Of a DNA stretch of 64,000 nt, positions 26,649 through 55,559 are shown one piece after another. The notes under the pieces were generated by a model, which worked only from the letters and a program-made list of their open reading frames with translations, did not search any database and was not told the origin of the DNA. Position 1 is the first letter of the stretch; every line of letters starts with the position of its first letter. The position numbers and the translations under genes are program-made. The stretch is from Candidatus Poribacteria bacterium (GTDB lineage: Bacteria; Poribacteria; WGA-4E; WGA-3G): the NCBI GenBank assembly GCA_965204285.1, contig OZ241980.1, forward strand, positions 4,269,987 to 4,333,986, in the 5' to 3' direction.

Positions 26649-26699
26649 ATATCATTTCTGACTGTAGTTTGATTAACCATTTGTAATTGATTTTGAAAT

Positions 26700-29264
26700 A
26701 TGCTTATCAAAATTCCTGACCCTTCACTTGTAATCCTCATTGGTGCTTCAGGTTCGGGTAAATCTACTTTTGCCCAAAAGCATTTTAAGCCGACAGAAAT
26801 CCTTTCGTCTGATTTCTGTCGTGGTCTTGTTTCTGATGACGAAACCGACCAGTCTGCAACGGCTGATGCGTTTGAAGTACTGCACTTCATTGCTGCGAAG
26901 CGACTCGCCGCTGGAAAATTGACAGTGATTGATGCTACGAATGTTCAGGCGGAGGCACGAAAATCGTTGCAGGCACTTGCAAAGGAATATCATTATTTAA
27001 CTACTGCTATAGTGTTTAACCTACCAGCTAAACTCTGTCAAGAGAGAAACGATGCGCGTCCTGACCGGAATTTCAAACCACATGTCATTCGTAATCAGAC
27101 CAGTCAACTGCGTAGATCACTACGCGGACTTAAGCGCGAGGGTTTCCGGAACTTTTTATATGTTATGTCTTCACCGGAGGAGGTTGAAGCAGCTCAAGTT
27201 GAACGGCAACCGTTGTGGACAGATCGTAAGCATGAAGTAGGTCCGTTTGACATAATTGGAGATATTCACGGTTGTTTTGATGAACTTGTGGAATTGCTGA
27301 AAAAACTCGGTTATGAAATTTCGAATCAATCGGATGGTGGGATAGTTGTTAGACATCTACAGGATAGAAAAGTCGTTTTTGTTGGAGATTATGTTGACCG
27401 AGGACCAAAAGTGGTTGAAGTGCTACGATTAGTTATGGAAATGCACAAAACAGATATGGCAATTTGTGTTCCGGGAAATCATGATACAAAACTTGTTCGG
27501 GCACTCAGAGGTAAAAATGTGAATCCGACGCATGGGTTAGCTGAGTCGCTTGCTCAATTAGAAAAAGAACCAGAGGAATTTAAGACAGACATAGCGGATT
27601 TTATTGAAGGCATGGTGAGCCACTATGTTCTGGACAACGGAAAACTTGTGGTGGCACATGCAGGAATGAAGAAGGAATTTCAAGGAAGAGCATCTGGGCG
27701 TGTCCGAGAATTCGCGCTTTATGGTGAAACCACTGGAGAAACTGACGAATTTGGCTTGCCTGTTCGGCTTAATTGGGCTGAGGAATATCGTGGTGATGCG
27801 ACTGTTGTTTATGGACATACGCCTGTTTCTGAACCGCAATGGATAAATCGCACCATTAATATTGATACAGGATGTGTTTTCGGGGGCAATCTGACAGCAT
27901 TGCGATACCCTGAAAGGGAACTCGTGTCTGTACCTGCGCGGCAAACCTATTATGAACCAGCTAAATCGCTGCTTGATGAATCGGACAAAAAGGCTTCATC
28001 AGAAAAGCAAATTGATGAAGGAATCTTGGACATTAGTGATGTTATAGGAAGACGAGTGATTAGCACTCGATTAAATCACAATGTAACGATTCGTGAAGAG
28101 AATACTATCGCAGCGCTGGAGGTGATGAGTCGTTTTGCAATTGATCCGAAATGGCTTATCTATTTACCGCCAACAATGTCTCCAACTGAAACCTCAAGCA
28201 AACCAAATCTGCTTGAACATCCAGCAGAAGGATTTGCTTATTATCGGAATCAAGGTGTGTCTCAAGTCGTTTGGGAAGAAAAACACATGGGATCACGTGC
28301 TGTTGTTATTGTATGCAAAAGCACCGAAACGGCAAAAAAGCGTTTTAGCATATCAGATGATAGAATTGGCGTCTGTTACACGCGCACTGGTAGACCTTTT
28401 TTTGACGAGGTATTGATGGAATCTGAACTACTGAAACAAGTCAAACAGGCAGCAGACAGCGCTGATTTTTGGGAAGCATTAGATACGGGTTGGATTTGTT
28501 TGGATTGTGAGCTGATGCCGTGGTCAGTGAAAGCACAAGAGTTGTTACGACAACAGTATGCCCCTGTTGGAACATCCGCAGGTATCGCGGTTCAAGATGC
28601 GATTGGTACTTTAGAAGCCGCAGAGAAACGGGGAATTGAGGTCAAGGATATATTGGACGGTTATCTACAACGCACTGTTGCTGTTAGTGAATATGTCAAT
28701 GCCTATCAACGATATTGCTGGTCTGTGGAATCTATCACCGATCTGAAACTTGCTCCGTTCCATCTATTGGCAACAGAGGGGAATGTACATGTTGATAAAG
28801 ACCATCTGTGGCACATGGAGATACTTTCAAAACTTTGTAACGGTTCTGATGACAATCTGTTATTTGCTACTTCATACGGCACGGTTGATTTAACTAACGA
28901 GAATAGTGAAACTGAAGCGATTCGTAAATGGGAAGACCTTACTGCACAAGGCGGTGAAGGTATTGTTATCAAACCATTGAATTTTGTTGTTAAAGGCAAA
29001 CGCGGACTTGTTCAACCGGCTGTTAAATGTCGGGGTAGAGAATATCTTCGTATAATTTATGGACCTGAATACACATTACCCCACTACTTAGAACGTCTTC
29101 GATCCAGAGGATTGTCGCACAAACGTTCGCTTGCAATCAGAGAATTTGCATTAGGTGTTGAAGCACTTGAAAGGTTTGTACATCATGAACCTTTGTCTAA
29201 GGTTCATGAATGTGTTTTCGGCGTATTAGCACTTGAAAGTGAAACAGTTGATCCGAGGTTATGA
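26700..29264 (+). CDS. pnkp: polynucleotide kinase-phosphatase/ligase Pnkp (RNA repair): P-loop 5'-kinase, calcineurin-like 2',3'-phosphoesterase, C-terminal adenylyltransferase/ligase
   Basis: GASGSGKST P-loop. GDIHGCFDEL / GDYVDRGP / GNHD metallophosphoesterase motifs. C-terminal nucleotidyltransferase region with candidate Lys nucleophile (EEKHMGSRAVV). Confidence 0.8.
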   Translation: MLIKIPDPSLVILIGASGSGKSTFAQKHFKPTEILSSDFCRGLVSDDETDQSATADAFEVLHFIAAKRLAAGKLTVIDATNVQAEARKSLQALAKEYHYLTTAIVFNLPAKLCQERNDARPDRNFKPHVIRNQTSQLRRSLRGLKREGFRNFLYVMSSPEEVEAAQVERQPLWTDRKHEVGPFDIIGDIHGCFDELVELLKKLGYEISNQSDGGIVVRHLQDRKVVFVGDYVDRGPKVVEVLRLVMEMHKTDMAICVPGNHDTKLVRALRGKNVNPTHGLAESLAQLEKEPEEFKTDIADFIEGMVSHYVLDNGKLVVAHAGMKKEFQGRASGRVREFALYGETTGETDEFGLPVRLNWAEEYRGDATVVYGHTPVSEPQWINRTINIDTGCVFGGNLTALRYPERELVSVPARQTYYEPAKSLLDESDKKASSEKQIDEGILDISDVIGRRVISTRLNHNVTIREENTIAALEVMSRFAIDPKWLIYLPPTMSPTETSSKPNLLEHPAEGFAYYRNQGVSQVVWEEKHMGSRAVVIVCKSTETAKKRFSISDDRIGVCYTRTGRPFFDEVLMESELLKQVKQAADSADFWEALDTGWICLDCELMPWSVKAQELLRQQYAPVGTSAGIAVQDAIGTLEAAEKRGIEVKDILDGYLQRTVAVSEYVNAYQRYCWSVESITDLKLAPFHLLATEGNVHVDKDHLWHMEILSKLCNGSDDNLLFATSYGTVDLTNENSETEAIRKWEDLTAQGGEGIVIKPLNFVVKGKRGLVQPAVKCRGREYLRIIYGPEYTLPHYLERLRSRGLSHKRSLAIREFALGVEALERFVHHEPLSKVHECVFGVLALESETVDPRL

Positions 29265-30245: not shown

Positions 30246-31448
30246 ATGTTGACAATACTGAATGTTTCCCAAAATCATTATATTCGCGGCGGTTCCGATA
30301 GATATTTTTTTACGATGGCGGAATTATTGCAAAAACATGGACACAACGTAATTCCGTTCGCCGCAGCAAACCCCAAAAATGAACACTCTGAATGGGAACA
30401 ATATTTCCCACGTGGAGCCGATTTTGAAAAACCGAAACCGATTGACCTACTACGTTTTTTGTATTCACGTGATGCTGTTAAATCGATTCAAAAGTTGTTG
30501 GACACTACAGATGTAGATATTGCACACTTTCATATTTACTACGGCAAATTGACTGCATCAATTTTGGGAAGCCTTGAAAAAGCTGGAATTCCTCTAATTC
30601 AGACATTGCACGAATATAAATTAACTTGTCCTGTTTATAGCCACTTGTCAAACGATGAGATATGTGAAGACTGTGAAGGAAAACACTTTTGGCGTGCACT
30701 TCCAAAACGGTGTAATAGAGGCTCACTTGCACGTACAGCCCTGAGTGTTACCGAGTCCTATGTTTCACGGCAATTAGGTGCCGTTGAAAAGTTTGACCAT
30801 TTCATTTCCGTTTCCCATTTTCTTCGAAAAAAAATGATACAGTATGGAATTCCTAAAGAAAAGATTTCAACGGTTCATAATTTTGCAGATGTTTCTGACA
30901 TCACGCCAAATTTTTCTATCGGTGAATATATACTCTACTTTGGCAGGGTGCATCGTAGCAAAGGTATTTTGACACTGATAGAGGCTGCAGCTCCACTAAA
31001 ACAAGTCCCACTCTATATCGTTGGTGATGGTGAAGCGATGCCTGAAGTTCAAAAAATTGTAGAACAGAACGGGTGTGAACATATCCACCTGTTAGGCTTT
31101 AAACAGGGTGATGAACTGCAAGAACTGATTCTAAATAGCATCTGCACAGTTTTGCCATCTGAATGGTATGAAAATTGCCCCATGTCCGTTTTAGAATCTT
31201 TTGCTTATGGGAGACCAGTGATCGGCGCGGATATAGGAGGTATCCCAGAATTAATTAAAGACGAAGTTGATGGATTTCTCGTTCCCTCCGCTGGAACAGA
31301 AGCACTTCGAGAAAAATTGTTGTGGATGTTTGAACATAAAGTTGAAGCCGCTGAGATGGGGAAAGCTGGACGCCATAAAATGGAGACCGAATTTAATGCC
31401 GATATTCACTATGAAAAGATCATGAATGTCTATCGGAAGTTTTTGTAA
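30246..31448 (+). CDS. family GT4 (GT-B) glycosyltransferase
   Basis: EX7E region EWYENCPMSVLESFAYGRPVIGADIGGIPELI. Rossmann-like N-domain. Confidence 0.75.
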   Translation: MLTILNVSQNHYIRGGSDRYFFTMAELLQKHGHNVIPFAAANPKNEHSEWEQYFPRGADFEKPKPIDLLRFLYSRDAVKSIQKLLDTTDVDIAHFHIYYGKLTASILGSLEKAGIPLIQTLHEYKLTCPVYSHLSNDEICEDCEGKHFWRALPKRCNRGSLARTALSVTESYVSRQLGAVEKFDHFISVSHFLRKKMIQYGIPKEKISTVHNFADVSDITPNFSIGEYILYFGRVHRSKGILTLIEAAAPLKQVPLYIVGDGEAMPEVQKIVEQNGCEHIHLLGFKQGDELQELILNSICTVLPSEWYENCPMSVLESFAYGRPVIGADIGGIPELIKDEVDGFLVPSAGTEALREKLLWMFEHKVEAAEMGKAGRHKMETEFNADIHYEKIMNVYRKFL

Positions 31449-32486: not shown

Positions 32487-32672
32487 AATCCAAATTGTAA
32501 TCTATATGCTGCAGAAAGATGTTTAGTTCTAAAACTTCTTTCTGAAGTTACAACCAAGTTTAAAAGTGTAAGACTGGGAGATTGAAAGGGATACACTTGT
32601 TGTTCTCTTACATTCTTTCAGTCTTTTCAAATATGGAATTGATTCTCTCATATTCCTAAGGGGATAGATCAA

Positions 32673-35600
32673 TTGATATTTTCAACATATATTGGCTCAA
32701 TACATAAAAAGTCCAAAAGGTTGAATTTGAGACTTACCCAGGTAGGTGGTCTTATTCTTTTTGTGTATATGTTCTTTTTAGGACATCACCAGATGGCAAC
32801 AGCGCAAACTGTTCACATTCCTGACCCAGGTCTCCGCGCTGTTCTTGAATTGGCATTGGATAAAGAGGTAGGTGACGACATCACTCAGGCGGATATGGAG
32901 AGTTTGAAAACACTTCAAGCAGTCAAATCTGGTATTCACGATCTCACAGGTCTTGAGTTCGCAACGAATCTGGAAATCTTAGAGTTTGGACAAAACCAAA
33001 TATCAGATATATCCCCACTTAAAGATTTGATAAAGCTGACAAAACTACGTCTTGGGGACAACCGTGAGATATCAGATGCGTCTCCGCTCAAAAATTTGAC
33101 AAATCTGACGTTCCTGGATATTGATAGTAATCAGGTATCGGATGTGTCTCCGCTCAAAAATTTGATAAATTTGACTTGGTTAGACCTTGACGACAACGGT
33201 ATCTCAGATTTGTCTCCACTTAGCACTTTGACAAAGCTGAGGTACTTGGATCTTGACGGCAACCTTATCTCAGATTTATCTCCACTTAGCACTTTGACAA
33301 ATCTGACATTTCTGGATCTTGATGAAAACGAGATATCAGATTTTTCCATACTCAGTACTTTGATAAACTTGACAGTGCTTGATCTTGAAGGTAACAAGAT
33401 ATCGGATGTGTCCCCCCTCAGCACCTTGATAAATCTGACAGAATTGGATCTACATAACAACAAGATATCGGATGTGTCTCCCCTCAGCAATTTGATAAAC
33501 TTGACAGTGCTTGACCTTCGGGGCAACCAGATATCAGATTTTTCCCCAATCAATGGATTGATAGATAATTTAGTGGAATATTATAACAGCGACCAAACCA
33601 TTCCAACCCATATACCTGAAAATGTGAATCGCGATGGCAACCCAGAACTTGTCCACATTCCAGACCGAGGTCTCCGTACTGCTCTTGAATTCGCATTGAG
33701 CAAAACACCAGTTGAAAACATAACTCAGTCAGATATGGCGAGTTTAAAAGTGCTTCAAGCAAGCAAATGCCGCTATTTAGGATTAGCGGAAGTGGGAGCA
33801 CGAGCGCCAAACCGGTGGGAATGCGGGTTTACTGATGTTACGTCTGGATATAGTATTCAAAATCTAACCGGCCTTGAGTTTGCTACTAATCTGAGAGAGT
33901 TACATCTTGGTCGAAATGAGATATCTGATGTGTCTCCACTCAAAAATTTGACAGAATTAACATACCTTGATCTTGGTAACAACCAGCAAATATCAGATGT
34001 ATCCCCACTCAGAAACTTGACAAATTTGACATTCTTAAACCTTAGATTTAATCGTATATCAGATATATCTCCACTCAAAAATTTGACAAAGCTGATTGAA
34101 CTCGGTCTACGCGGCAATGAATTATCGGATGTGACTCCACTCCGTCCCTTGATAAGCTTGAAGTATCTAAGCGTTAGAGATAATCGTTTATCAGATGTGA
34201 CTCCTTTACGAAACTTGACACAATTGGTAATCCTGAATCTGCGTGAAAATAATATATCAGATGTGACTCCATTCAAAGGTTTGGTGAACTTGACACACCT
34301 TTATCTTAGAGAAAACCAAGTATTGGATGTGTCACCTCTCAGAGATATGATAAATATGAGAGAACTGGACCTTGAAGATAACCAAGTATCAGATGTGACT
34401 CCACTCAGAGATATGACGGAACTGGTATACCTGGATATGGACAGCAACGCAGTACCGGACGTGTCTGCATTAAAAAATATGACAAAACTAAGAATTCTGG
34501 ATTTTTCCGATAACCAGATATCAGATATTTCACCACTCACAGATATGTTATATCTAAGTCGCCTGGATCTTGATGACAATCCAATATTGGATGTGTCACC
34601 TCTCGAAAACTTGACAAGACTGATATGGTTAGATCTGGATGATAACGAGATATTGGATGTGTCACCTCTCAAAAACTTGACAAGACTGACATGGTTAGAT
34701 CTGGATGACAACCAAATATCGGATCTATCTCCGCTTAAAAATTTGATGGAACTGACATACCTGGACCTTGATGGCAACGAGATATCAGATTTATCGCCAC
34801 TCAAAGATATGACAAAACTGGAAGTCTTGGATCTTGATGGTAATAACATATCTGATGTGTCCCCACTCAGTACATTAATAAATCTAATAGAGTTGGATCT
34901 TCACGACAACGAAATATCTGATATATCCGCACTCCAAAATATGACAAATCTGATGGATCTGGATATTGACGACAACCAGATAACTGATGTATCACCTCTG
35001 AAAAATATGATTAAATTAACAATACTTGATGCTGACGGCAACCTGATATTGAATGTGTCCCCACTCAAAGATTTGACAAATCTTACTGAACTGGATCTTC
35101 ACGACAACGAAATATCTGATATATCCGCACTCCAAAATATGACAAAACTCAAAGTGCTTGATCTTCGTGGCAATCAGATATCAGATTTTTCGCCAATCGC
35201 CGGATTGATAGATAATTTAGTAGAATATTATAACAGCAACCAAACATTTCCTGCCTACAAGCGTGAAGATGTGAATCGAGATGGTGTCGTGAATATTACT
35301 GATCTTGTCTTAGCGGCAACTAACTTTGACGATCCTGACTTGACGGTACTTGCTCGGAGAAATCTCTATCCAGATGTTAACAACGACGGTGTTGTGGATA
35401 TCAGAGACTTAGTTCTAATCGCTGCGGAGATAGGTTCGGCTGCTGCTCCAGCACTTAGCAAAAGCTCAATTGAAACATCGAATCTCACTGCCAAAAATCT
35501 CACGCAGTGGATACGGCTTGCCAAGAAACTTGATATGTCCAATCTGCAGATGCAGAAAGGGGTTGCTGTTTTGGAGCAGCTTTTAGCAGTGCTGTCCCAT

Positions 35601-35909
35601 GCAGAGAGGTTACCGAAAGAGACGGCACTATTAATGAACTATCCAAATCCGTTCAACCCAGAGACTTGGATACCTTATCAGCTGGCAAAACCAACAGAGG
35701 TAGTTATTTCTATCCATTCTGTAGATGGGAAGCTTGTTCGGAGGCTGGTGTTAGGGCATTTACCTGTGGGTATATATCGTAGCAAATCTCGCGCTGCACA
35801 TTGGGATGGTCGGAATGAGTCGGGTGAACTTGTGGCAAGTGGTGTCTATTTTTATACACTCACTACTGATAATTTTACGGCTACTCGCAAAATGCTCATT
35901 CAGAAGTAA
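32673..35909 (+). CDS. internalin-like LRR surface protein, in-frame fusion of two paralogous LRR units, with C-terminal dockerin-like pair plus T9SS-type CTD
   Basis: TTG start conserved with paralogs (AAGGGGA RBS). About 33 22-residue LRRs (L..LTNLT.LDL..N.ISDVSPL). A second N-cap (VHIPDRGLRTALEFAL...C...C) at about aa 320. C-terminus DVNRDGVVNITD / DVNNDGVVDIRD then NYPNPFNPETWIPYQL...GVYFYTL. Confidence 0.75.
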   Translation: MIFSTYIGSIHKKSKRLNLRLTQVGGLILFVYMFFLGHHQMATAQTVHIPDPGLRAVLELALDKEVGDDITQADMESLKTLQAVKSGIHDLTGLEFATNLEILEFGQNQISDISPLKDLIKLTKLRLGDNREISDASPLKNLTNLTFLDIDSNQVSDVSPLKNLINLTWLDLDDNGISDLSPLSTLTKLRYLDLDGNLISDLSPLSTLTNLTFLDLDENEISDFSILSTLINLTVLDLEGNKISDVSPLSTLINLTELDLHNNKISDVSPLSNLINLTVLDLRGNQISDFSPINGLIDNLVEYYNSDQTIPTHIPENVNRDGNPELVHIPDRGLRTALEFALSKTPVENITQSDMASLKVLQASKCRYLGLAEVGARAPNRWECGFTDVTSGYSIQNLTGLEFATNLRELHLGRNEISDVSPLKNLTELTYLDLGNNQQISDVSPLRNLTNLTFLNLRFNRISDISPLKNLTKLIELGLRGNELSDVTPLRPLISLKYLSVRDNRLSDVTPLRNLTQLVILNLRENNISDVTPFKGLVNLTHLYLRENQVLDVSPLRDMINMRELDLEDNQVSDVTPLRDMTELVYLDMDSNAVPDVSALKNMTKLRILDFSDNQISDISPLTDMLYLSRLDLDDNPILDVSPLENLTRLIWLDLDDNEILDVSPLKNLTRLTWLDLDDNQISDLSPLKNLMELTYLDLDGNEISDLSPLKDMTKLEVLDLDGNNISDVSPLSTLINLIELDLHDNEISDISALQNMTNLMDLDIDDNQITDVSPLKNMIKLTILDADGNLILNVSPLKDLTNLTELDLHDNEISDISALQNMTKLKVLDLRGNQISDFSPIAGLIDNLVEYYNSNQTFPAYKREDVNRDGVVNITDLVLAATNFDDPDLTVLARRNLYPDVNNDGVVDIRDLVLIAAEIGSAAAPALSKSSIETSNLTAKNLTQWIRLAKKLDMSNLQMQKGVAVLEQLLAVLSHAERLPKETALLMNYPNPFNPETWIPYQLAKPTEVVISIHSVDGKLVRRLVLGHLPVGIYRSKSRAAHWDGRNESGELVASGVYFYTLTTDNFTATRKMLIQK

Positions 35910-36029
35910 GAGATGATTACATCAGGTCTTTTAGTTTGATGTATATGCTGCTTGTTTCTTTCTGAATCCTTGCTTGTAGAAACTTTCAGAATTTCCTGAT
36001 TAACCGAAAACAAAGGAGCAAGAAATATC

Positions 36030-38225
36030 TTGATACTTTTTACATCATATAAAGGATCGCTATCCGAATATTTCTCAAACCGGAATTTAGAATTTACCCG
36101 TGTTGTTATTCTTGTATTTATAGCGTGTGCCTTTTTTGGGGCACCACACCGTATAGCAACCGCACAGACTGTCCACATTCCGGATTCTGATCTTCGCACC
36201 GCTGTTGAGTTAACATTGAACAAAGAGATAGGTGAAGACATCACTCCAGCAGATATGGCAAGTTTGCAAATACTTCAAGCAAGTAACTGTCACTTTTTGA
36301 GGCGATCAGGAGTGCCACGATGGATACCAATACGCCAGAGATGTCCACACAATTTATTAGAATCCCACGTTCAAGACCTAACAGCACTTGAATTCGCAAT
36401 TAATCTGGAAGAGTTACATCTTGCTCATAACCTGATATCTGATGTATCCCCACTCAAAAATATGAAAAAACTGATTGTGTTAGATCTGCACAACAACTTT
36501 ATGATATCTGATGTATCACCACTTAGTGCTTTGACAAATCTTACGCACTTATCTCTTTGGGGCAACCAAGTTTCCGATCCCTCTCCCCTCAGTGTACTAA
36601 AAAACCTCACATATTTATCTCTTGAAAACAATGGAGTATCTGATGTATTCCCACTCAAAGGTTTGACCAACTTGGAGGGACTGGATGTTGAAACCAACCG
36701 AATCTCCGATTTATCCCCGCTCAGAGGTTTGACAAAACTTACGTTCCTTGATTTTGACCAGAATAGAGTATCTGATGTATCACCACTCAAAAACATGACA
36801 GAACTAACACAACTGGATGCATCCGACAACCAGATTTCAGATATATCTCCGCTCAGTGCTATGACAGAAATAACACAGCTGGATATTGACGATAATCAGA
36901 TAATAGATATATCCGCACTCAAAAATATGACAAAAATGTTATGGCTGGATATTGACGGTAACCAGATAATAGGTTTGTCCGCACTCAAAAATATGACAAA
37001 TCTGACAAGGGCGAACATTGATGACAATAACATATCAGATGTGTCCCCACTGGAAAATTTAACAAAATTAGAAAAACTTGATCTTGACCATAACAACATA
37101 TCAGATGTATCACCACTGAAAAATATGGTAAAACTGACATGGTTAGATATTGACGATAACCAGATAATAGATATATCCGCACTCAAAAATATGATAAGGT
37201 TGCAATTGTTGGATTTAGGTGACAATGAAATATTAGATATATCCGCACTCAAAAATATGACGAAATTGACAGAATTAGATCTTAACGACAACGAAATATT
37301 AGATATATCCGCACTCAAAAATATGACAAAACTCAAAGTGCTTGATCTTAACGGCAATCGGATATCAAACATATCCGCACTGAAAAATATGACAAAATTG
37401 ACAGAATTAGATCTTCACGACAACCAGATATCAGATATATCCGCACTCAAAGATTTGACAAATCTCAAAGTGTTGGATCTTCGTGGCAACCATATATCTG
37501 ATTTTTCACCAATCGCAGGATTGATAGATAATTTAGTGGAATATTACAACAGCGACCAAACACTCCCGACCCACAAATTAGAAGATGTGAACCGAGATGG
37601 TATCGTAAATATTACTGATCTTGTTTTAGCCGCATTAAATCTTGACAATCCTGATTTAGCGTCACTCGCTCGGAGAAATCTCTATCCAGATGTTAACAAT
37701 GACGGTGTTGTGGATATCAGGGACTTGGTACTAATCGCTGCAGAGATAGGTTCACCCGCTGCTCCAGCGCTCAGCAAAAACGCGGTTGAAACATCCAACC
37801 TCACTGCTAAAAATCTCACACGGTGGATACGGCTTGCCAAACAGCTTGATACACAAGAGCCGCAAATACAAAGAGGGATTTCTGTTTTAGAACAGTTCTT
37901 AGCAGTTCTGATTGACGTAGAAGTGCCACCAAAAGAGACTGCCCTACTAACCAACTATCCAAATCCGTTCAACCCTGAAACTTGGATACCTTATCAGTTG
38001 GCAAAACCAGCGAAGGTAAATATCTCTATTCATTCTGCGGATGGTAAACTTATTCGTCTGATACCAATGGGGCACTTGCCTGCAGGCACATATCACAGCA
38101 AATCTCGCGCAGCTTATTGGGATGGTCGGAATGACTCAGGTGAGACTGTAGCAAGTGGCGTCTATTTTTATACACTCACTGCAGATGATTTCACCGCTAC
38201 TCAAAAAATGCTAATCCGAAAGTGA
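36030..38225 (+). CDS. internalin-like LRR surface protein with C-terminal dockerin-like pair plus T9SS-type CTD (paralog 2)
   Basis: TTG start and AAAGGAG RBS. Signal peptide and Cys-loop N-cap (NCHFL...RQRCPHN). About 17 LRRs. Same C-terminal module. Confidence 0.75.
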   Translation: MILFTSYKGSLSEYFSNRNLEFTRVVILVFIACAFFGAPHRIATAQTVHIPDSDLRTAVELTLNKEIGEDITPADMASLQILQASNCHFLRRSGVPRWIPIRQRCPHNLLESHVQDLTALEFAINLEELHLAHNLISDVSPLKNMKKLIVLDLHNNFMISDVSPLSALTNLTHLSLWGNQVSDPSPLSVLKNLTYLSLENNGVSDVFPLKGLTNLEGLDVETNRISDLSPLRGLTKLTFLDFDQNRVSDVSPLKNMTELTQLDASDNQISDISPLSAMTEITQLDIDDNQIIDISALKNMTKMLWLDIDGNQIIGLSALKNMTNLTRANIDDNNISDVSPLENLTKLEKLDLDHNNISDVSPLKNMVKLTWLDIDDNQIIDISALKNMIRLQLLDLGDNEILDISALKNMTKLTELDLNDNEILDISALKNMTKLKVLDLNGNRISNISALKNMTKLTELDLHDNQISDISALKDLTNLKVLDLRGNHISDFSPIAGLIDNLVEYYNSDQTLPTHKLEDVNRDGIVNITDLVLAALNLDNPDLASLARRNLYPDVNNDGVVDIRDLVLIAAEIGSPAAPALSKNAVETSNLTAKNLTRWIRLAKQLDTQEPQIQRGISVLEQFLAVLIDVEVPPKETALLTNYPNPFNPETWIPYQLAKPAKVNISIHSADGKLIRLIPMGHLPAGTYHSKSRAAYWDGRNDSGETVASGVYFYTLTADDFTATQKMLIRK

Positions 38226-38342
38226 AGCGAGATGACACAGCAGCATTTTAGTTAGATGTATGCTGCTTGCTTCTGCTTTGAAGCCTTGTGGGTGATACTT
38301 TTCAGCGTTATCCGTTGACCTAAGACATAGGAGTATTATCTC

Positions 38343-40700
38343 TTGAAACTTTTTACATCATATAAGGTATTACTGTCCAAACCTTTCTCAGACCGGAGTG
38401 TAGAATTTACCCGGATTGTTATTCTTGTTTTTATCGCGGGCATGCTTTTTGGGGCATCACACCCGATAGCAATGGCACAGCCTGTCCACATTCCGGACCC
38501 CGGCCTCCGTGCTGCTCTTGAATTAGCACTGGATAAAGAGATAGGTGAGGACATTACCGAGGCTGAGATGGCGAGTTTGAAAATACTTCAAGCAAGTAAC
38601 TGCCGTTTTTTATGGTTGTCGGAAATAGGACACTGGGCTGTAAATAGGCGATGGATATGTCAGTCTGCTGACGATACGTTGGGAACCGGTGATAATATGT
38701 TTGAATATGATATTCGAGATTTGACGGGCCTTGAGTTTGCTACTAATCTGACAGATCTGCATCTTGGCCGGAATCGGATATCTGATATTTCTCCACTCAA
38801 AGACTTGACAAACTTAACATATCTTGATCTCGGACTCAACCGGAGGATATCGGATGTGTCTCCACTTGAAAACTTAACAAACTTGACACACTTGAATCTA
38901 ACAGGTAATCGGATATCGGATGTGTCTCCACTTAAAAACTTAACAAAACTGGTAGACTTGGATCTCCAATACAATCGGATATCGGATGTGTCTCCACTTG
39001 AAAACTTAACAAACTTGATTTTTTTAGATATCCGCAGCAACCAGATATCAGATATATCTCCACTCAAAAATTTGACAAACTTGACACACCTGAGACTTAA
39101 AGAGAACCAAATATTTGATGTTACCCCGCTCAAAAACTTAACAGACTTATCACACCTTAGTCTTCAATCCAATCAGATATCGGATGTGTCCCAACTCACT
39201 TCCTTGGCAAATTTAGTTTATCTGGATCTTGACAGCAACCAGATATCAGATGTATCTGTGCTCAAGAACTTTAAAGAACTGAGACATCTGGATATTTCTG
39301 ACAACCAAGTATCGGATGTATCTCCCCTCCAAGATCTGATATTCCTGGGACGTCTGGATATTGACGATAACCCTCTATCGGATGTGTTCCCGCTCAGAAA
39401 ATTGACTAACCTTGTATTTTTAGATATTGATGATTGTCAGATATTAGATATTTCTCCTCTCAGAGACTTGATCAGGTTGACAGTTTTAGATCTTGATGAT
39501 AATAAGATATCCGATGTATTTCCTCTCAAGGACTTGACAAGATTGGTAGTTTTGGATCTTGATGGCAATGAATTATCGGATATATCTCCACTTGAAAACT
39601 TGACAAGACTGACAGAACTGGATCTTGATGGTAATCAGATATCGGATGTGTCCCCGCTCAAAGTTTTGAGAAATTTAAAACTACTTGATCTTCACAACAA
39701 CCTGATATCTGATTTGGCGCCACTCAGTGACTTAACAAGACTGGCTTTTCTGGATCTTGACGACAATCAGATATTAGATGTGTCTCCACTCAGAAATTTG
39801 ACAAACTTGACGGAACTGGATCTTGATGGTAATCAGGTATCGGATGTAACACCTCTTAAAGATTTAACAAATCTGACAGTGTTAGACCTCCGCGACAATC
39901 AGATATTAGATGTGTCTCCACTCAACGGTTTGGTAAACCTGAAAATCTTAGATATTAGTGACAACCATATATCTGATTTTTCTCCAATTGCCGGATTGAT
40001 AGATAATTTGGAGGAATATTATAACAGCAACCAAACATTTCCTGCCTACAAGCGGGAAGATGTGAACCGCGATGGTGTCGTGAATATTACTGATCTTGTC
40101 TTAGCAGCAACCAACTTTGACGATCCTGACTTGGGCGCACTTGCCCGGATAAACCTCTATCCAGATGTTAACAACGACGGTGTTGTGGATATTAGAGACC
40201 TGGTCCTTATTGCTGCAGAGATAGGTTCCGCTGCTGCACCTACACTTAGCAAAAATTCCATTATAGCAATAGAGCTCACTGCGAAGGACCTCACGCCGTG
40301 GATTGCTCTCGCAAAACAACTTGACACACAAGATATACAGATACAAAAAGGTATTGCTGTATTGGAGCAGCTTTTAGCTGCCCTTACTCTTTCCGAGATT
40401 TTACCGCGAGAGACAGCCCTGTTAGCGAACTATCCAAATCCGTTCAATCCTGAAACGTGGATACCGTATCAGCTGTCAAAACCGGCAGCGGTTACGATAT
40501 CTATTCATTCTGCGGATGGTAAACTTATTCGCTCATTATATATTGGGCGTTTGTCTGCTGGTATCTATCGTAGCAAATCCCGTGCGGCGTATTGGGATGG
40601 TCGAAATGAGTCGGGTGAACTTGTAGCAAGCGGTGTTTATTTTTATACACTCACTGCGGGTGATTATACTGCAACGAAGAAAATGCTTATCAAAAAGTAA
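38343..40700 (+). CDS. internalin-like LRR surface protein with C-terminal dockerin-like pair plus T9SS-type CTD (paralog 3)
   Basis: TTG start and AGGAG RBS. N-cap NCRFLWLSEIGHWAVNRRWIC. About 22 LRRs. Same C-terminal module. Confidence 0.75.
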   Translation: MKLFTSYKVLLSKPFSDRSVEFTRIVILVFIAGMLFGASHPIAMAQPVHIPDPGLRAALELALDKEIGEDITEAEMASLKILQASNCRFLWLSEIGHWAVNRRWICQSADDTLGTGDNMFEYDIRDLTGLEFATNLTDLHLGRNRISDISPLKDLTNLTYLDLGLNRRISDVSPLENLTNLTHLNLTGNRISDVSPLKNLTKLVDLDLQYNRISDVSPLENLTNLIFLDIRSNQISDISPLKNLTNLTHLRLKENQIFDVTPLKNLTDLSHLSLQSNQISDVSQLTSLANLVYLDLDSNQISDVSVLKNFKELRHLDISDNQVSDVSPLQDLIFLGRLDIDDNPLSDVFPLRKLTNLVFLDIDDCQILDISPLRDLIRLTVLDLDDNKISDVFPLKDLTRLVVLDLDGNELSDISPLENLTRLTELDLDGNQISDVSPLKVLRNLKLLDLHNNLISDLAPLSDLTRLAFLDLDDNQILDVSPLRNLTNLTELDLDGNQVSDVTPLKDLTNLTVLDLRDNQILDVSPLNGLVNLKILDISDNHISDFSPIAGLIDNLEEYYNSNQTFPAYKREDVNRDGVVNITDLVLAATNFDDPDLGALARINLYPDVNNDGVVDIRDLVLIAAEIGSAAAPTLSKNSIIAIELTAKDLTPWIALAKQLDTQDIQIQKGIAVLEQLLAALTLSEILPRETALLANYPNPFNPETWIPYQLSKPAAVTISIHSADGKLIRSLYIGRLSAGIYRSKSRAAYWDGRNESGELVASGVYFYTLTAGDYTATKKMLIKK

Positions 40701-40777
40701 TACCAAATCAGGTAATGCCAAACGGTCTTAATTCTGATAAAAATACCTTTTTAAGTGGCTACACTACAAGGAGCAAA

Positions 40778-43408
40778 ATGAGAACATCAATAGTATTATT
40801 TTTCATTTTCTGTCTGCTGTCAACAGCATTAGGTGACATCCAGTTTGAAGAAGTTTCACATCAAGCAGGCATCACCCGCATCGGTGAAAGTTGGGGAAAT
40901 GCATGGGGTGATTTTGACGGTGATGGTTATCTTGACTTATGGGCAACAAACCATAAGCATAAACCGAGCCTTTATCGGAACAACGGTGACGGAACTTTTA
41001 CAGATATTATTGACGAAGTCTGGAACGCGAATCCGCATGCCGATACACATGGTGTCGCGTGGGCAGATTTTGATAACGATGGCGACCAGGATCTAATTGT
41101 GTTATGTGGAAGTGGTGGTGGGAGAACAAGTGTAACTAATCCAACTCAGGATAACCATTTTTACATTAACGAAAATGGTATGCTTATAGAACGGGCGTCT
41201 GAGTTGGGTGTTGTATTTCCACTTTTACGAGGTAGAACACCTCTCTGGTTAGATTGGAATACCGATGGGGAGTTGGATCTTGTTCTAACTGGAATTCTCC
41301 GAATGGATGGGAACGGTGAGTTAGTGGCAGCCTCTTTATTTGAACAGACAACGGGTGGTTTTCAAGATGTAAGCTCTGCTTCAGGTTTTTTGATAGAAAA
41401 AAGTACTTCGTTAGCGCAACTGGTGGATATAACACACGATGGAGTCATGGATTTGGTTGTTCAAGGGAACCCTCATCCGCTGCAAGTATATGACATGTCT
41501 TCAATGTTTTTTAATCCTGTAACAACGCCTAACTTCCCGAAACGTTTTAATGTAAAAGATGCCGTTTATGCCGATTTCAACGGGGATTTGATGTTGGATA
41601 GTTTTCTTGGAAGAGGTGTATCCAGTTCCTACATTGACACACAAAATCCAAATAGAATGGTAGCCGGTATATCTGCCAACATGGAAGAAAAAGGTGTTAG
41701 TTTCAAAGCCGAAGGTGATGTGCATTTTGAAATCTATTCAGCTTGGGCAACTTGGCGTTCTCATCTATTAATTGGTGCCGAAGGACATCAATTAACACAA
41801 TTTGATGGTGAATTTATTGGAACAGACCCGATTCGTAATGTAGCATCTTTCAAATTTGTTCTATCTCCCGATGACCCTAAAGCAGTAGGGCTCAAAAATA
41901 GACCGGAATTTGAAAATCAAAGGATTTATGTCGGTTATGATCATGTGACGGAAAGATGGACCGTCCTGTTTCATACAATGCCTCGTAATAAGATCACTGG
42001 GAATATAACCATGAGTGCGATTATCCATTCATCTCAATCAATATCAGATGTAGAACCCATTAACTTTTCCACATCAGAATTACGGAACAGACCGCAATCA
42101 ATTCTTTTTATTAACGAAGGGAATAAACTTGCATCTACTAACGATGCTTTTGCAAGTGATGTTGTCTCAATTGGTTCAGGTGACTTTGATAACGATATGG
42201 ATGTGGACCTTTACCTCGTACGTTCAAGCAGTGTCGGGAATCTCCCAAATTACCTTTATGAAAACATGGGAGCTGGATCTTTTATTGAACACGATGCAGG
42301 AGGTGGCGCTGTTGCAAGCGAACAAGGAAGAGGACAAAGCGTCGCGGTGGCTGACTATGACAAAGATGGATACCTTGACCTTTTTGTCACGAACGGCAAA
42401 GGAGTGTTCCCCTTTAACAATGGACCTGACCAACTTTTCCGAAATACAGACAGTGGCAACAATTGGCTGCAAATTGATTTGGAGGGAACTGTTTCTAATC
42501 GTGATGGTATCGGCGCGCGACTTTTCGCAACAACACCTGATGGTAAAACTCAATTACGAGAAAACAGCGGAGGTATTCATTGGTGTCAACAGGACCAGAA
42601 ACGTATCCATTTTGGGCTTGCACAGAATGAGAAAGTCAGCGAATTGGTTATCCATTGGCCAAGCGGAATATTCCAAAAGTTGACCAACATAGAAGTTAAT
42701 CAAGTATTACACGTCGTTGAGGATGGGATTCAAACACAGCTTCCAGGGGATGTCAATCGAGATGGGCAGGTAGATATATTGGATCTCCTTGTTGTTGTAT
42801 CGCACTTTGGAGAAGATCCACCTTCAAACGCGCGAAGTGATACCAACAAAGATGGACAAGTAAATCTTGAAGATGTTGTTTGGATTATCAAGATTATTGA
42901 AGAGAACCAGAATAGTAATGCAGCGCCTGTTCAGAGACCTTCAACCCGATCTATTCCGAATACTATGTCAAACGGTATTGCCACGTTGTCGGACACGGAT
43001 ATAGCACTCCTTCATTCCTTTTATCAAAAAATTGAAGAAATGCAAGGGAACTCTACACAAATAGAATTGGTCAAACGATTTTTAAGACATCTACTAATGC
43101 CCGCGGATAATCCGTTGAAAACGAAACTCTATGCGAATTACCCGAATCCTTTTAATCCGGAAACATGGATTCCATATCAACTTGCGGAGGATGTTGAAAT
43201 TACTATACGTATCTATAACACAGCAGGTAAGATTGTAAGGACTCTTTTTTCTGGACATCAAAAATCAGGGTATTACATCACCCGTAGCAAAGCCGCATAT
43301 TGGGATGGTCAGAACGAATTCGGAGAAGCAGTTGCCAGTGGTGTCTATATCTATGAACTGGTAACCCCAAAAACTAAACACACAAAACGACTCGTAGTAA
43401 TAAAGTAA
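40778..43408 (+). CDS. FG-GAP repeat / UnbV_ASPIC (CRTAC1-like) protein with C-terminal dockerin-like pair plus T9SS-type CTD
   Basis: FG-GAP/VCBS motifs (DFDGDGYLDLW, DFDNDGDQDLIV, DYDKDGYLDLFV). ASPIC domain (RDGIGARLFATTPDGKTQLRENSGGIHWCQQDQKRIHFGL...IHWPSG). Then DVNRDGQVDILD / DTNKDGQVNLED and NYPNPFNPETWIPYQLA...GVYIYEL. Confidence 0.75.
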   Translation: MRTSIVLFFIFCLLSTALGDIQFEEVSHQAGITRIGESWGNAWGDFDGDGYLDLWATNHKHKPSLYRNNGDGTFTDIIDEVWNANPHADTHGVAWADFDNDGDQDLIVLCGSGGGRTSVTNPTQDNHFYINENGMLIERASELGVVFPLLRGRTPLWLDWNTDGELDLVLTGILRMDGNGELVAASLFEQTTGGFQDVSSASGFLIEKSTSLAQLVDITHDGVMDLVVQGNPHPLQVYDMSSMFFNPVTTPNFPKRFNVKDAVYADFNGDLMLDSFLGRGVSSSYIDTQNPNRMVAGISANMEEKGVSFKAEGDVHFEIYSAWATWRSHLLIGAEGHQLTQFDGEFIGTDPIRNVASFKFVLSPDDPKAVGLKNRPEFENQRIYVGYDHVTERWTVLFHTMPRNKITGNITMSAIIHSSQSISDVEPINFSTSELRNRPQSILFINEGNKLASTNDAFASDVVSIGSGDFDNDMDVDLYLVRSSSVGNLPNYLYENMGAGSFIEHDAGGGAVASEQGRGQSVAVADYDKDGYLDLFVTNGKGVFPFNNGPDQLFRNTDSGNNWLQIDLEGTVSNRDGIGARLFATTPDGKTQLRENSGGIHWCQQDQKRIHFGLAQNEKVSELVIHWPSGIFQKLTNIEVNQVLHVVEDGIQTQLPGDVNRDGQVDILDLLVVVSHFGEDPPSNARSDTNKDGQVNLEDVVWIIKIIEENQNSNAAPVQRPSTRSIPNTMSNGIATLSDTDIALLHSFYQKIEEMQGNSTQIELVKRFLRHLLMPADNPLKTKLYANYPNPFNPETWIPYQLAEDVEITIRIYNTAGKIVRTLFSGHQKSGYYITRSKAAYWDGQNEFGEAVASGVYIYELVTPKTKHTKRLVVIK

Positions 43409-43420: not shown

Positions 43421-44416
43421 ATGAAAAAAACCTCATTGGTTACTGGTGGAGCAGGTTTTATGGGTGCCCACCTCGTTAATGAGTTACTTCGCGATGAAAA
43501 TCATCAAGTGGTTGCACTTGATGACCTGAGCGGTGGATTTCACGAAAATGTCAATCCAAATGCAACATTTGTTGAAGGTAGTATACTTGATGTTCAACTA
43601 ATAAACCAACTCTGTGAGCAGTATAAATTTAACTATATCTATCATCTTGCGGCGTATGCAGCAGAGGGATTGAGTCACTTTATCAAACGATTTAACTATC
43701 AAAATAACCTTATCGGTAGTGTCAACCTGATAAATGCCGCTGTGAACTATAATGTTAAACGGTTTGTGTTCACCTCTTCCATCGCTGTTTATGGTGAAAA
43801 CCAACTTCCGATGCACGAAGGACTCATACCGATGCCTGAAGATTCCTACGGTATCGCCAAATATGCTGTAGAACAAGAATTGGTCGTTTCTAAACACCTC
43901 TTTGACTTGGATTACACCATTTTCCGACCACATAATGTTTATGGTGAACTTCAGAATATTAGTGATAAATATCGCAATGTTATCGGCATCTTCATGAATA
44001 AAATTATGCAAAATGAACCCTTGGTTATCTTTGGAGATGGAGAGCAGACACGCGCTTTTACACATATCGCAGATGTCGCACCGCATATCGCACACTGCGT
44101 AGATATACCGGAAGCCTCATGTGAAGTTTTCAATGTCGGTTCGGATAAACATGTTTCTGTCAATGAATTAGCACATCTCGTCATGACAGCCATGGAAAAG
44201 GAGGTACCTGTAAAACATCTTCGAGAAAGGGAAGAGGTGAAGCATGCCTATTGCACGCATGAAAAATTCCACAAGGTTTTTGGAGAAACGTCACAGGTTT
44301 CACTTCCAGAAGGTTTAGGTAGGATGACAACATGGGCAAAGTCTGTCGGACCACGGGATTCCACCTTATTTAAGGACATTGAAATTCGCAAAAACCTACC
44401 TGAAGGTTGGAAATAA
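43421..44416 (+). CDS. NAD-dependent sugar epimerase/dehydratase (extended SDR)
   Basis: VTGGAGFMGAHL (GxxGxxG). YGIAKYAVEQ (YxxxK). Confidence 0.8.
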   Translation: MKKTSLVTGGAGFMGAHLVNELLRDENHQVVALDDLSGGFHENVNPNATFVEGSILDVQLINQLCEQYKFNYIYHLAAYAAEGLSHFIKRFNYQNNLIGSVNLINAAVNYNVKRFVFTSSIAVYGENQLPMHEGLIPMPEDSYGIAKYAVEQELVVSKHLFDLDYTIFRPHNVYGELQNISDKYRNVIGIFMNKIMQNEPLVIFGDGEQTRAFTHIADVAPHIAHCVDIPEASCEVFNVGSDKHVSVNELAHLVMTAMEKEVPVKHLREREEVKHAYCTHEKFHKVFGETSQVSLPEGLGRMTTWAKSVGPRDSTLFKDIEIRKNLPEGWK

Positions 44417-44445
44417 TTTTCTCCATCTCTGGATTCCAAATTTGC

Positions 44446-45762: not shown

Positions 45763-45829
45763 AGCATATTTTTAGTAGAATTGGACTCAACGATTACATT
45801 GAGGACTCGGTTTAATTCTGGACGAATTT

Positions 45830-46810: not shown

Positions 46811-46853
46811 TACGAAAGTTTCGTGTTAGGTATTTCATTCAAGGAGAGTCAGT

Positions 46854-55548: not shown

Positions 55549-55559
55549 GGGAACGGTTT

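What the first reader, a model, noticed from the sequence alone, without database searches (positions are those of the whole stretch)
33560..33700. First LRR gene is an in-frame fusion of two paralogous units, with the junction inside a dockerin repeat
At about aa 300-330 of the 1078-aa protein the first LRR block ends with DNLVEYYNSDQTIPTHIPENVNRDG. This is the start of dockerin repeat 1. It runs directly into NPELVHIPDRGLRTALEFALSK..., the mature N-cap of a second unit (compare TVHIPDPGLRAALELAL in paralogs 2 and 3).

A deletion has therefore removed the rest of the dockerin/CTD, the intergenic region and the signal peptide of the next copy. The result is one long double-LRR protein.

This shows recombination between tandem paralogs is ongoing at this locus.
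Basis: seen in the sequence. Interest (0 to 1): 0.5.

Follow-up and report, generated by a model that had tools for sequence, protein, structure and literature searches.

The report
Fused double LRR surface-protein gene
In a sponge-symbiont (Poribacteria) genome, two neighbouring leucine-rich-repeat surface-protein genes have been welded into one long gene by loss of the DNA between them; this is real but is an ordinary kind of gene fusion.

Summary
ORF 32673-35909 (1078 aa) contains two complete LRR units. Unit A ends at aa 322 (nt 33638) with NVNRDG, the first six residues of a dockerin calcium loop. Four residues later (nt 33651), VHIPD begins the mature N-cap of unit B.

Both sides match paralogs strongly (blastn E 3e-38 and 7e-21).

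The window is from Candidatus Poribacteria. I examined 52 LRR units in 75 syntenic loci. Only this one runs from a dockerin start straight into an N-cap.

Unit A has gap-free, same-length orthologs (70-71% aa) in two relatives, and a third at 75% over the part that aligns. All three are stand-alone genes with their own signal peptide, a full dockerin and, in two of them, an intact T9SS-type C-terminal domain. So the fusion is derived.

The join is illegitimate. It uses a 5-nt GATGG microhomology. About 13 nt of the former signal-peptide end survive in a shifted frame, and a net -1 indel restores the frame.

The gene is in fact a three-part mosaic, because its 5' end is orthologous by position to a different first gene in the closest relative.

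"Ongoing recombination" is not shown. What the comparisons show is recurrent, historical rearrangement and concerted evolution.

Interest is low to moderate.

The parts
32570..32672 (+). Upstream intergenic DNA of g1. It is the positional ortholog of the region upstream of the first LRR gene in the closest relative, L002.
   Evidence: blastn: W 32570-32920 matches L002 3656-4004 at 81%.
32673..32810 (+). Signal peptide of g1 (n-region KKSKRLNLR, hydrophobic core, ...MATAQ). It is of the 'first-gene' type, not the A type.
   Evidence: 78% nt identity to the L002 first gene, against 34-49% (unalignable) to A-type genes. Protein alignment.
32811..32921 (+). N-cap of unit A (VHIPDPGLRAVLELALDKEVGDDITQADMESLKTLQA). 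The left, homologous breakpoint of the mosaic lies at or near its end.
   Evidence: tblastn. 86% identity to the L002 first gene against 70-75% to A-type genes. Beyond nt 32921 the pattern reverses.
32922..33509 (+). A-type LRR body: about ten 22-aa (66-nt) repeats with no Cys-loop insert.
   Evidence: Pfam LRR_4/LRR_8. 66-nt periodicity. Gap-free 276-aa orthologs L047_672 and L001_12390 at 70-71% aa. AF2 pLDDT above 90.
33510..33620 (+). C-cap of unit A and the pre-dockerin linker (LDLRGNQISDFSPINGLIDNLVEYYNSDQTIPTHIPE).
   Evidence: tblastn. blastn 85% to 35153-35284. Alignment A3.
33621..33638 (+). Dockerin remnant NVNRDG: the first 6 residues of calcium-binding loop 1. Its first Asp has been replaced by Asn.
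   Evidence: Alignments. D is present in all 49 readable intact units and N only here.
33633..33637 (+). GATGG, the microhomology shared by the dockerin start (cgc GAT GGt) and the signal-peptide end (caG ATG Gca). This is the inferred crossover point.
   Evidence: DNA alignments and upstream sequences.
33638..33650 (+). Remnant of the 3' end of a signal-peptide coding region (CAACCCAGAACTT). It is read one base out of its original frame and now encodes N-P-E-L. It is 1 nt shorter than in intact copies, which restores the frame.
   Evidence: blastn alignment to L002 starts at W 33633 / L002 8413, 19 nt upstream of that gene's N-cap. In the edit-distance test, 59/5000 random 13-mers and 212/5000 shuffles were as close.
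33651..33764 (+). N-cap of unit B (VHIPDRGLRTALEFALSKTPVENITQSDMASLKVLQAS).
   Evidence: tblastn. Alignment A4.
33765..33860 (+). Cys-containing insert between the N-cap and the first LRR (KCRYLGLAEVGARAPNRWECGFTDVTSGYSIQ). It is shared with g2 and g3 and is absent from A-type units.
   Evidence: Alignment A4. Low AF2 confidence.
33861..35156 (+). B-type LRR body, about 20 repeats.
   Evidence: Pfam LRR_4 (20 stretches over the whole protein). Best cross-genome match is L002_8432 at 60% aa.
35157..35429 (+). C-cap of unit B and a complete dockerin type I domain (two calcium loops, DVNRDG and DVNNDG).
   Evidence: Pfam PF00404 at aa 865-919, 24.0 bits against a cut-off of 22.9. tblastn.
35640..35909 (+). 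T9SS type A sorting domain (CTD) and stop codon.
   Evidence: TIGR04183, 35.1 bits against a cut-off of 23, aa 990-1077.
36030..38225 (+). Paralog g2: a single-unit gene (signal peptide, N-cap, Cys loop, LRR, dockerin, CTD).
   Evidence: Ortholog is L001 7653-9716 (69% aa).
38343..40700 (+). Paralog g3: a single-unit gene with the same architecture.
   Evidence: Ortholog is L002_6002 (78% aa).

Best explanation
g1 is a genuine, lineage-specific, in-frame fusion of two formerly separate LRR surface-protein genes in a Candidatus Poribacteria genome.

**How it formed.** An illegitimate, microhomology-mediated join linked two points. One is the start of the dockerin of a short A-type gene, just after ...NRDG. 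The other is the last few codons of the signal peptide of a long B-type gene. The join removed about 0.6 kb of dockerin, linker and CTD, the intergenic DNA, and about 0.13 kb of signal-peptide coding sequence. The crossover lies in GATGG. That put unit B one base out of frame, and a net -1 indel within the next 13 nt restored the frame. This could have been part of the same event or a later, selected repair.

A separate homologous exchange in the conserved N-cap gave the gene the promoter-proximal region and signal peptide of the array's first gene.

**What it most likely does (inferred).** The product is exported by the single N-terminal signal peptide. It is displayed on the cell surface through the single remaining dockerin and T9SS-type C-terminal domain. 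It carries two different, complete LRR solenoids (each with its own N-cap and C-cap) joined by a linker of about 17 residues. That would make it a bivalent version of the eukaryote-like LRR proteins thought to mediate sponge-symbiont contact.

**Shown:** the junction anatomy, that the fusion is derived, the mosaic structure, and the intact ORF. **Inferred:** the order of events, export, and binding function.
For: **Junction anatomy.**

**Uniqueness.** Only 1 of 52 units in 75 Poribacteria loci has a dockerin start followed by an N-cap (13-nt gap). In 48 of the other 51 the CTD follows after about 330-350 nt. The three exceptions (L030, L038, L060) have lost their CTD.

**Stand-alone orthologs of unit A.**
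- L047 516-2126 and L001 12264-13844: 276 aa aligned without gaps, 70-71% identity. Each has its own signal peptide, full dockerin and CTD.
- L084: 75% identity over the aligned 79% of the query, with its own N-cap and a full dockerin. Its gene call is broken by frameshifts.

**Unit B's closest relative.** L002 8291-10642 has its own signal peptide.

**Signal-peptide remnant and frame shift.**. The blastn alignment to L002 starts 19 nt upstream of that gene's N-cap. The remnant is closer to signal-peptide ends than 98.8% of random 13-mers.

**Relaxed constraint on the dockerin remnant.** D to N at a site that is invariant in 49/49 units.

**Unit A is still constrained.** dN/dS is 0.15-0.21 against its orthologs, and there are no stops in 1078 codons.

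**Mosaic 5' end.**

**Domain assignments.**

**Background.** LRR, VCBS/ASPIC and TIGR04183-bearing eukaryote-like proteins are a known feature of Poribacteria (PMC3909097).
Against: - There is no read-level or independent-assembly support. The exact proteins of this locus are absent from the 153-billion-gene index, and the junction peptide is absent from JGI metagenome contigs.
- No relative shows the presumed pre-fusion adjacency of A then B.
- The signal-peptide remnant is short, so its statistical support is modest (about 0.01-0.04).
- The frame needs a second change (-1), so a one-step in-frame deletion is not what the sequence shows.
- The AF2 single-sequence model has low confidence across the junction, the unit B N-cap and the Cys loop (pLDDT about 30). 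The claim that both domains fold independently rests on sequence completeness only.
- Structural genes of the Por/T9SS system were reported missing from poribacterial single-cell genomes (PMC3909097), so the export route is uncertain.
Confidence: 0.85

Rival explanations
1. The junction is the novel joint of a tandem duplication, not a deletion between adjacent genes. Take an array ordered [B][g2][g3][A], as in L001. Suppose it was duplicated, with an illegitimate joint between A's dockerin start and B's signal-peptide end. Homologous deletions then removed the upstream B-g2-g3 copy (by crossover in the N-caps) and the terminal A copy. The junction sequence produced would be identical. Only the path differs.
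For: - Every close A-type ortholog (L001, L047, L084), and the more distant A-like short units (L027, L030, L038, L060), is the last gene before the FG-GAP gene. In the window A is first.
- Unit order is cyclically permuted between genomes. W is A^B, g2, g3. L001 is (B/g3-like), g2, g3-like, A.
- The 5' end of g1 is the positional ortholog of another first gene. The N-cap crossover in this model predicts exactly that.
Against: - It needs at least three events, against one or two for a deletion.
- No duplicated intermediate was seen in any of the 75 loci.
- Orthology of L001's first gene to unit B is weak (53% against 58% to g3).
- L002 has yet another order, so the ancestral order is not known.
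Confidence: 0.25
2. Assembly artefact: the join at 33638/33639 is a chimeric or collapsed-repeat mis-assembly of the tandem LRR array, and the real genome has separate genes.
For: - The region is a tandem array of 66-nt repeats and about 80% identical C-terminal modules. Such regions are the kind that assemblers get wrong.
- The source is evidently a metagenome-assembled genome (inferred from its relatives being MAGs).
- No independent assembly with this junction could be found.
Against: - False joins arise at long shared sequence and so join homologous positions in register. This join links non-homologous positions (dockerin start to signal-peptide end) that share only GATGG.
- The longest exact matches between the paralogs are 19-41 nt, and none lies at the junction.
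- The junction-specific features are not what a chimera of two extant copies would give. These are D to N at an invariant site, a 13-nt stretch matching no other copy exactly, and a frame-restoring -1 indel.
- The open reading frame is intact through 1078 codons.
Confidence: 0.06
3. The two-LRR architecture is ancestral, and the single-unit genes of relatives arose by fission.
For: Nothing specific. It is listed only because the direction of change must be argued, not assumed.
Against: - The junction carries six residues of a calcium-binding loop and nucleotides of a signal-peptide end in the wrong frame. Both make sense only as leftovers of complete modules.
- Fission would have had to create a dockerin, a CTD and a signal peptide homologous to those of all other paralogs.
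- 51 of 52 units are unfused, across lineages whose neighbouring FG-GAP protein is only 59-91% identical to the window's.
Confidence: 0.02

Closest known systems
Listeria monocytogenes inlH (inlC2-inlD fusion in the inlGC2DE / inlGHE internalin cluster)
   Same: A tandem array of paralogous LRR surface-protein genes. In one lineage a deletion fuses the 5' part of one gene to the 3' part of the next, leaving one signal peptide and one cell-surface anchor (PMC3977354). The LRR repeats here are also of the 22-residue internalin type. NCBIfam internalin models give partial hits.
   Different: inlH is an in-register homologous recombinant with a single LRR domain (LRR of InlC2, B repeats and sorting signal of InlD). 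Here the join is out of register and illegitimate, and it keeps both complete LRR domains in tandem. The anchor is a dockerin plus a T9SS-type CTD, not LPXTG. The organism is a Gram-negative sponge symbiont. Scores are far below the internalin family cut-offs (493 against 1600 bits), so it is not an internalin family member.
Eukaryote-like LRR proteins of Poribacteria (Kamke et al. 2014, PMC3909097)
   Same: The same phylum and the same Pfam families: LRR_4 (PF12799), VCBS/FG-GAP_3 (PF13517) and ASPIC/UnbV next door, signal peptides, and the TIGR04183 C-terminal domain.
   Different: That work catalogued domain abundance. It did not describe tandem-array dynamics, the dockerin module or gene fusions. 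The double-LRR fused gene was not found in any of the 75 loci examined here.
Microhomology-mediated illegitimate deletion or duplication producing gene fusions (general bacterial mechanism; from general knowledge, not tested here)
   Same: Breakpoints at non-homologous positions sharing about 5 nt. Intervening DNA is lost and a chimeric ORF is created.
   Different: The frame was not preserved by the join itself. A compensating -1 change lies within 13 nt, so former signal-peptide nucleotides now encode a linker in another frame.

Membership tests
Leucine-rich repeat proteins, bacterial 22-residue (internalin-like) type | Multiple tandem LRR_4/LRR_8 repeats with N-terminal and C-terminal caps | tested here: met
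   PF12799 E 3.7e-123 with 20 stretches in g1. 66-nt periodicity. Two N-caps and two C-caps.
Class 1 internalins (InlA/InlH, NCBIfam NF033189/NF033188) | Whole-protein score above the curated cut-off (which implies an inter-repeat Ig-like domain and an LPXTG anchor) | tested here: not met
   493 bits against a cut-off of 1600, and 455 against 1050. The hits are to LRR stretches only, and the C-terminus is a dockerin plus T9SS CTD.
Dockerin type I (PF00404) | Two EF-hand-like calcium-binding loops with following helices, scoring above the gathering threshold | tested here: met
   For the C-terminal copy: aa 865-919, 24.0 bits against 22.9. Margin is small. g2 scores 24.9. g3 scores 22.4, just below threshold.
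Dockerin type I (PF00404): the junction remnant | The same two calcium-binding loops | tested here: not met
   Only NVNRDG (6 aa) remains. The first Asp is replaced by Asn. It is a remnant, not a domain.
T9SS type A sorting domain proteins (TIGR04183) | C-terminal about 70-90 aa domain scoring above cut-off | tested here: met
   35.1 bits against a cut-off of 23, aa 990-1077.
T9SS type A sorting domain proteins (TIGR04183) | A type IX secretion machinery (PorK/L/M/N, SprA, PorU/V) encoded in the same genome | not tested
   Only 64 kb is available. The literature reports Por structural genes missing from poribacterial SAGs (PMC3909097).
Gene fusion by loss of the DNA between two genes | Each half has stand-alone orthologs or paralogs with the modules that are missing at the junction | tested here: met
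   Unit A: L047, L001, L084. Unit B: L002 8291-10642 with its own signal peptide.
Gene fusion by loss of the DNA between two genes | Leftovers of the deleted modules at the junction | tested here: met
   A 6-aa dockerin start plus about 13 nt of signal-peptide end in a shifted frame.
Gene fusion by loss of the DNA between two genes | A relative with the two genes adjacent, in the same order, and unfused | tested here: not met
   None of the 75 loci has an A-type gene directly upstream of a B-type gene. A-type genes are always last in the array.

The most novel reading that the evidence does not exclude
In Poribacteria, the dockerin-CTD cassette and the signal-peptide/N-cap cassette that flank every LRR body may act as recombination handles. 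These would continually reshuffle, fuse and truncate host-interaction surface proteins. The A^B fusion would then be a selected, bivalent adhesin that combines two ligand specificities on one anchor. The frame-restoring -1 indel next to the join would be the footprint of that selection.
Probability: 0.25. Interest if true: 0.45.

Novelty: new member of a known kind. Interest (0 to 1): 0.28.

Why it matters
This is a clean, well-documented example of how tandem arrays of eukaryote-like surface proteins diversify in an uncultivated sponge symbiont. Three processes are visible at one locus:
- module-level gene conversion (C-terminal modules cluster by genome);
- homologous exchange of 5' cassettes;
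- an illegitimate join that makes a two-headed LRR protein.

For annotation, it explains an unusually long LRR gene, and it warns that the internal NVNRDG is a relic and not a domain.

It does not reveal a new mechanism or a new protein family. Its functional meaning is untested.

Tried and rejected
**Independent assemblies of the junction.** Exact-sequence look-ups of g1, g2, g4, the LTD protein, the GT4 and the epimerase all returned nothing. No independent assembly of this strain could be used to check the junction.

**Metagenome scans.**
- A degenerate DNA pattern encoding RDGNPELVHIPD found nothing in JGI metagenome contigs.
- A second metagenome scan, using unit A as query, returned only distant LRR genes (at most 51% identity).

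**Protein database search across the junction.** A 153-aa query spanning the junction gave only three hits in the 5.8-billion-protein set, and none crossed the junction. One of them led to the useful relative L001.

**Structure prediction.** An AF2 single-sequence model of aa 44-476 was confident for LRR A and moderately so for LRR B. It was uninformative (pLDDT about 30) for the linker, the unit B N-cap and the Cys loop. I made no structural claim from it and did not run a fold search.

**Reconstructing the ancestral gene order.** I tried this from W, L001, L002, L054 and L024/L064. The orders conflict and C-terminal modules are homogenised within genomes. The path (deletion or duplication joint) is therefore left open.

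**Dating the fusion from paralog divergence.** Rejected as meaningless, because concerted evolution affects the relevant segments.

**Phase-variable or programmed recombination.** Considered and dropped. There are no long exact repeats, no invertase or recombinase nearby, and the junction is unique.

**Literature.** A search for Poribacteria plus dockerin found nothing relevant.
Full report
**1. What is in the sequence**

The region 32673-40700 holds three same-strand genes: g1 (32673-35909, 1078 aa), g2 (36030-38225, 731 aa) and g3 (38343-40700, 785 aa).

g2 and g3 share one architecture:
- a signal peptide;
- an N-cap beginning VHIPD;
- a Cys-containing insert;
- about 20 internalin-type 22-residue LRRs;
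- a C-cap (ISDFSPIAGLIDNLVEYYNS);
- a short linker;
- a dockerin type I domain with two calcium loops (DVNRDG..., DVNNDG...);
- a linker of about 70 aa;
- a T9SS type A sorting domain.

The domain assignments are Pfam LRR_4/LRR_8, PF00404 and TIGR04183.

g1 contains this architecture once, plus an extra signal peptide, N-cap, LRR body and C-cap in front of it. The peptide at the join is ...NSDQTIPTHIPENVNRDG-NPEL-VHIPDRGLRTALEFALSK.... NVNRDG occupies nt 33621-33638 and the second N-cap starts at nt 33651.

**2. Is it more than chance?**

Yes.
- blastn with 33500-33900 splits cleanly. 33506-33637 matches the C-cap and dockerin start of g1's own C-terminus (85%, E 3e-38), of g2 and of g3. 33633-33783 matches the 5' ends of g1, g3 and g2 (E 7e-21 and better).
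- tblastn with module queries finds four N-caps and four C-cap/dockerin starts in the LRR array, but only three full dockerins and three CTDs. The copy at 33510-33638 ends precisely at the G of NRDG.
- Protein alignments show the same boundaries.

**3. Fine structure of the junction**

Intact dockerins read ...AAT CGx GAT GGT GTC GTx AAT. Intact 5' ends read ...CAG ATG GCA ACx GCx CAx ACT GTC CAC (…Q M A T A Q T V H). The junction reads AAT CGC GAT GGC AAC CCA GAA CTT GTC CAC.

- The pentamer GATGG is common to both parents, so it is the likely crossover point.
- The following CAAC matches the signal-peptide consensus (GCAAC).
- The 13 nt between GATGG and GTCCAC resemble signal-peptide ends more than 98.8% of random 13-mers from these genes and 95.8% of shuffles do. 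That support is modest.
- In line with this, the blastn alignment of unit B to its best relative starts 19 nt upstream of that gene's N-cap.

The two parental frames differ by one base (GAT GGC against ATG GCA). Intact copies have 18 nt between ATG and GTC, and the junction has 17.

Without that net -1 change the fused frame would hit a stop 10-14 codons after the join. I worked this out by translating the parental sequences shown.

So the join either was complex or was followed by a compensating indel. Four residues (NPEL) are now encoded by former signal-peptide nucleotides in a new frame.

The dockerin remnant also carries Asn in place of an Asp that is present in all 49 readable intact units. 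This suggests relaxed constraint since the fusion.

**4. Source organism and relatives**

The neighbouring FG-GAP/ASPIC-dockerin-CTD protein (g4, 40715-43408) recovers more than 70 syntenic loci. Almost all are from Candidatus Poribacteria MAGs.

- The closest is L002 (CBDCOJ010000028.1). Its flanks are 85.5% identical at the nucleotide level.
- A second syntenic relative, L001, came from a protein hit.

I located N-cap, C-cap and CTD modules in all 75 loci. In 48 of the 51 other units the CTD follows the C-cap/dockerin start after about 330-350 nt. The other three (L030, L038, L060) have lost their CTD, so the next one found is the FG-GAP gene's, about 2.9 kb downstream. Only the window's unit A is followed by an N-cap, 13 nt away.

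**5. Direction of change**

Unit A, measured from its N-cap to NRDG, is 276 aa.
- It aligns without a single gap to L047 516-2126 (536 aa) at 70% identity and to L001 12264-13844 (526 aa) at 71%.
- No paralog exceeds about 57% identity over the unit.
- Both orthologs are stand-alone genes with their own signal peptide, complete dockerin and CTD.
- A third ortholog lies in L084. It is 75% identical over the aligned 79% of the query, has its own N-cap and a full dockerin, and lies in a frameshift-ridden long-read contig.

Unit B's best cross-genome match is L002 8291-10642, which has its own signal peptide.

The fused state is therefore derived, and fission can be dismissed.

Unit A is still under purifying selection. 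dN/dS is 0.15-0.21 against its orthologs, although dS is near saturation.

**6. The gene is a three-part mosaic, and the array is rearranged**

The segment W 32570-32920 covers the upstream DNA, the signal peptide and the N-cap. It is the positional ortholog of the 5' end of L002's first LRR gene.
- Overall nucleotide identity is 81%.
- The signal peptide is 78% identical, against 34-49% to A-type genes.
- The N-cap is 86% identical, against 70-75% to A-type genes.

Beyond nt 32921 the relationship flips. Identity is 72-76% to A-type genes and about 25% (out of register) to the L002 gene. So a homologous exchange in the conserved N-cap also shaped g1.

Unit order differs between genomes:
- window: [A^B][g2][g3];
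- L002: [other][g3-like][B-like];
- L001: [B/g3-like][g2-like][g3-like][A-like].

Every close A-type ortholog (L001, L047, L084), and the more distant A-like short units in L027, L030, L038 and L060, sits last, next to the FG-GAP gene.

No relative shows A directly upstream of B. I therefore cannot tell whether the junction arose by a simple deletion between adjacent genes, or as the joint of a tandem duplication of a [B g2 g3 A] array followed by homologous losses. Both paths give the same junction.

**7. Is recombination "ongoing"?**

The C-terminal modules (C-cap to stop) cluster by genome:
- 77-80% identity within the window;
- 81-89% within L001;
- 65-68% between the window and L001.

The LRR bodies, by contrast, cluster by type. 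In L001, two genes with different bodies share a 5' end that is 88% identical. This is concerted evolution, meaning repeated gene conversion or unequal exchange over time.

Within the window, however, the paralogs differ by at least 20% even in their most similar modules. Their longest exact matches are 19-41 nt. The junction remnant has itself diverged. The event at 33638 is illegitimate, not homologous.

So the locus is recombinationally dynamic on an evolutionary scale. Present-day activity is not demonstrated.

**8. Artefact?**

I could not test reads, and no independent assembly of this strain was found.

The nature of the join argues against a chimera:
- it links non-homologous positions that share 5 nt;
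- it contains sequence identical to no other copy;
- it keeps a 1078-codon frame through a local -1 change.

One residual risk is an error in the CCC run at 33641-33643. That would turn the fusion into a truncated A gene.

**9. Likely function**

The window is a cell-surface locus. It encodes:
- a GT4 glycosyltransferase, an epimerase and a MurJ-like flippase;
- two sulfotransferases;
- Wzy-like and Wzi proteins;
- six proteins ending in the same dockerin-CTD cassette: the three LRR genes, FG-GAP/ASPIC, and two sulfatases.

Poribacteria are known for abundant LRR, VCBS/ASPIC and TIGR04183-bearing eukaryote-like proteins, which are proposed to mediate host interaction (PMC3909097).

The fusion keeps both LRR domains complete with their caps, one signal peptide and one anchor. 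The most likely product is a surface-displayed protein with two different LRR binding modules in tandem. This is inference.

The AF2 single-sequence model supports a well-folded LRR A (pLDDT above 90) and a plausible LRR B (70-80). It is uninformative for the linker.

**10. Comparison with known cases and verdict**

The nearest documented parallel is Listeria inlH, a fusion of the 5' part of inlC2 with the 3' part of inlD within a tandem internalin cluster (PMC3977354). That event was in register and yields a single LRR domain. This one is out of register and yields two.

The proteins here are not internalin family members, because their scores are far below the cut-offs.

The added detail is a microhomology join, a frame-shifted signal-peptide relic, a three-part mosaic and a relocated unit. 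The fused gene is a new member of a known kind of event. Interest is low to moderate.

Noticed in passing
window 32673-43408 and 53467-57596: Six genes end in the same cassette of dockerin type I plus T9SS-type CTD: three LRR genes, an FG-GAP/ASPIC protein (40715-43408) and two sulfatases (53467-55548, 55491-57596). The cassette looks like a shared, exchangeable surface-anchoring module.
   Followed up: partly
window 30246-31448, 43421-49153, 57610-59262: The LRR array sits inside a surface-polysaccharide cluster. It includes a GT4 glycosyltransferase, an NAD-dependent epimerase, a MurJ-like flippase, two sulfotransferases, a Wzy-like polymerase/ligase and Wzi. This suggests a sulfated capsule or exopolysaccharide locus.
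   Followed up: partly
window 25239-29264: A Hen1 (RNA 3'-end methyltransferase) and Pnkp (kinase-phosphatase-ligase) bacterial RNA-repair gene pair lies just upstream of the surface locus.
   Followed up: no
L001 2678-4303: The relative L001 carries a TnpB / IS605 OrfB-type gene between the GT4 and LTD genes. It is absent from the window and from L002. Several L001 genes (LTD and three LRR genes) are frameshifted, which may be long-read assembly error or decay.
   Followed up: no
L030 8407-9636 (also L038, L060): In three other Poribacteria genomes the short A-like LRR gene keeps its dockerin but stops before the CTD. This is an independent loss of the C-terminal module, in the same gene type and at the same array position next to the FG-GAP gene.
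   Followed up: partly
L001 7653-7893 versus 12264-12489: Two LRR genes with different LRR bodies share a 5' end (signal peptide plus N-cap) that is 88% identical over 241 nt. This is a clear gene-conversion tract within the array.
   Followed up: partly
window 33765-33860, 36285-36380, 38598-38725: Unit B, g2 and g3 carry a 32-42-aa insert with two cysteines (C...C) between the N-cap and the first LRR. A-type units lack it. It is variable in sequence and poorly modelled by AF2. Coordinates for g2 and g3 are approximate.
   Followed up: no
window 33131-33553 (-), 34301-34849 (-), 36425-37372 (-): There are long antisense ORFs (130-180 aa) inside the LRR genes. They repeat with the same 66-nt period and are almost certainly by-products of the repeat's codon pattern, not genes.
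   Followed up: no
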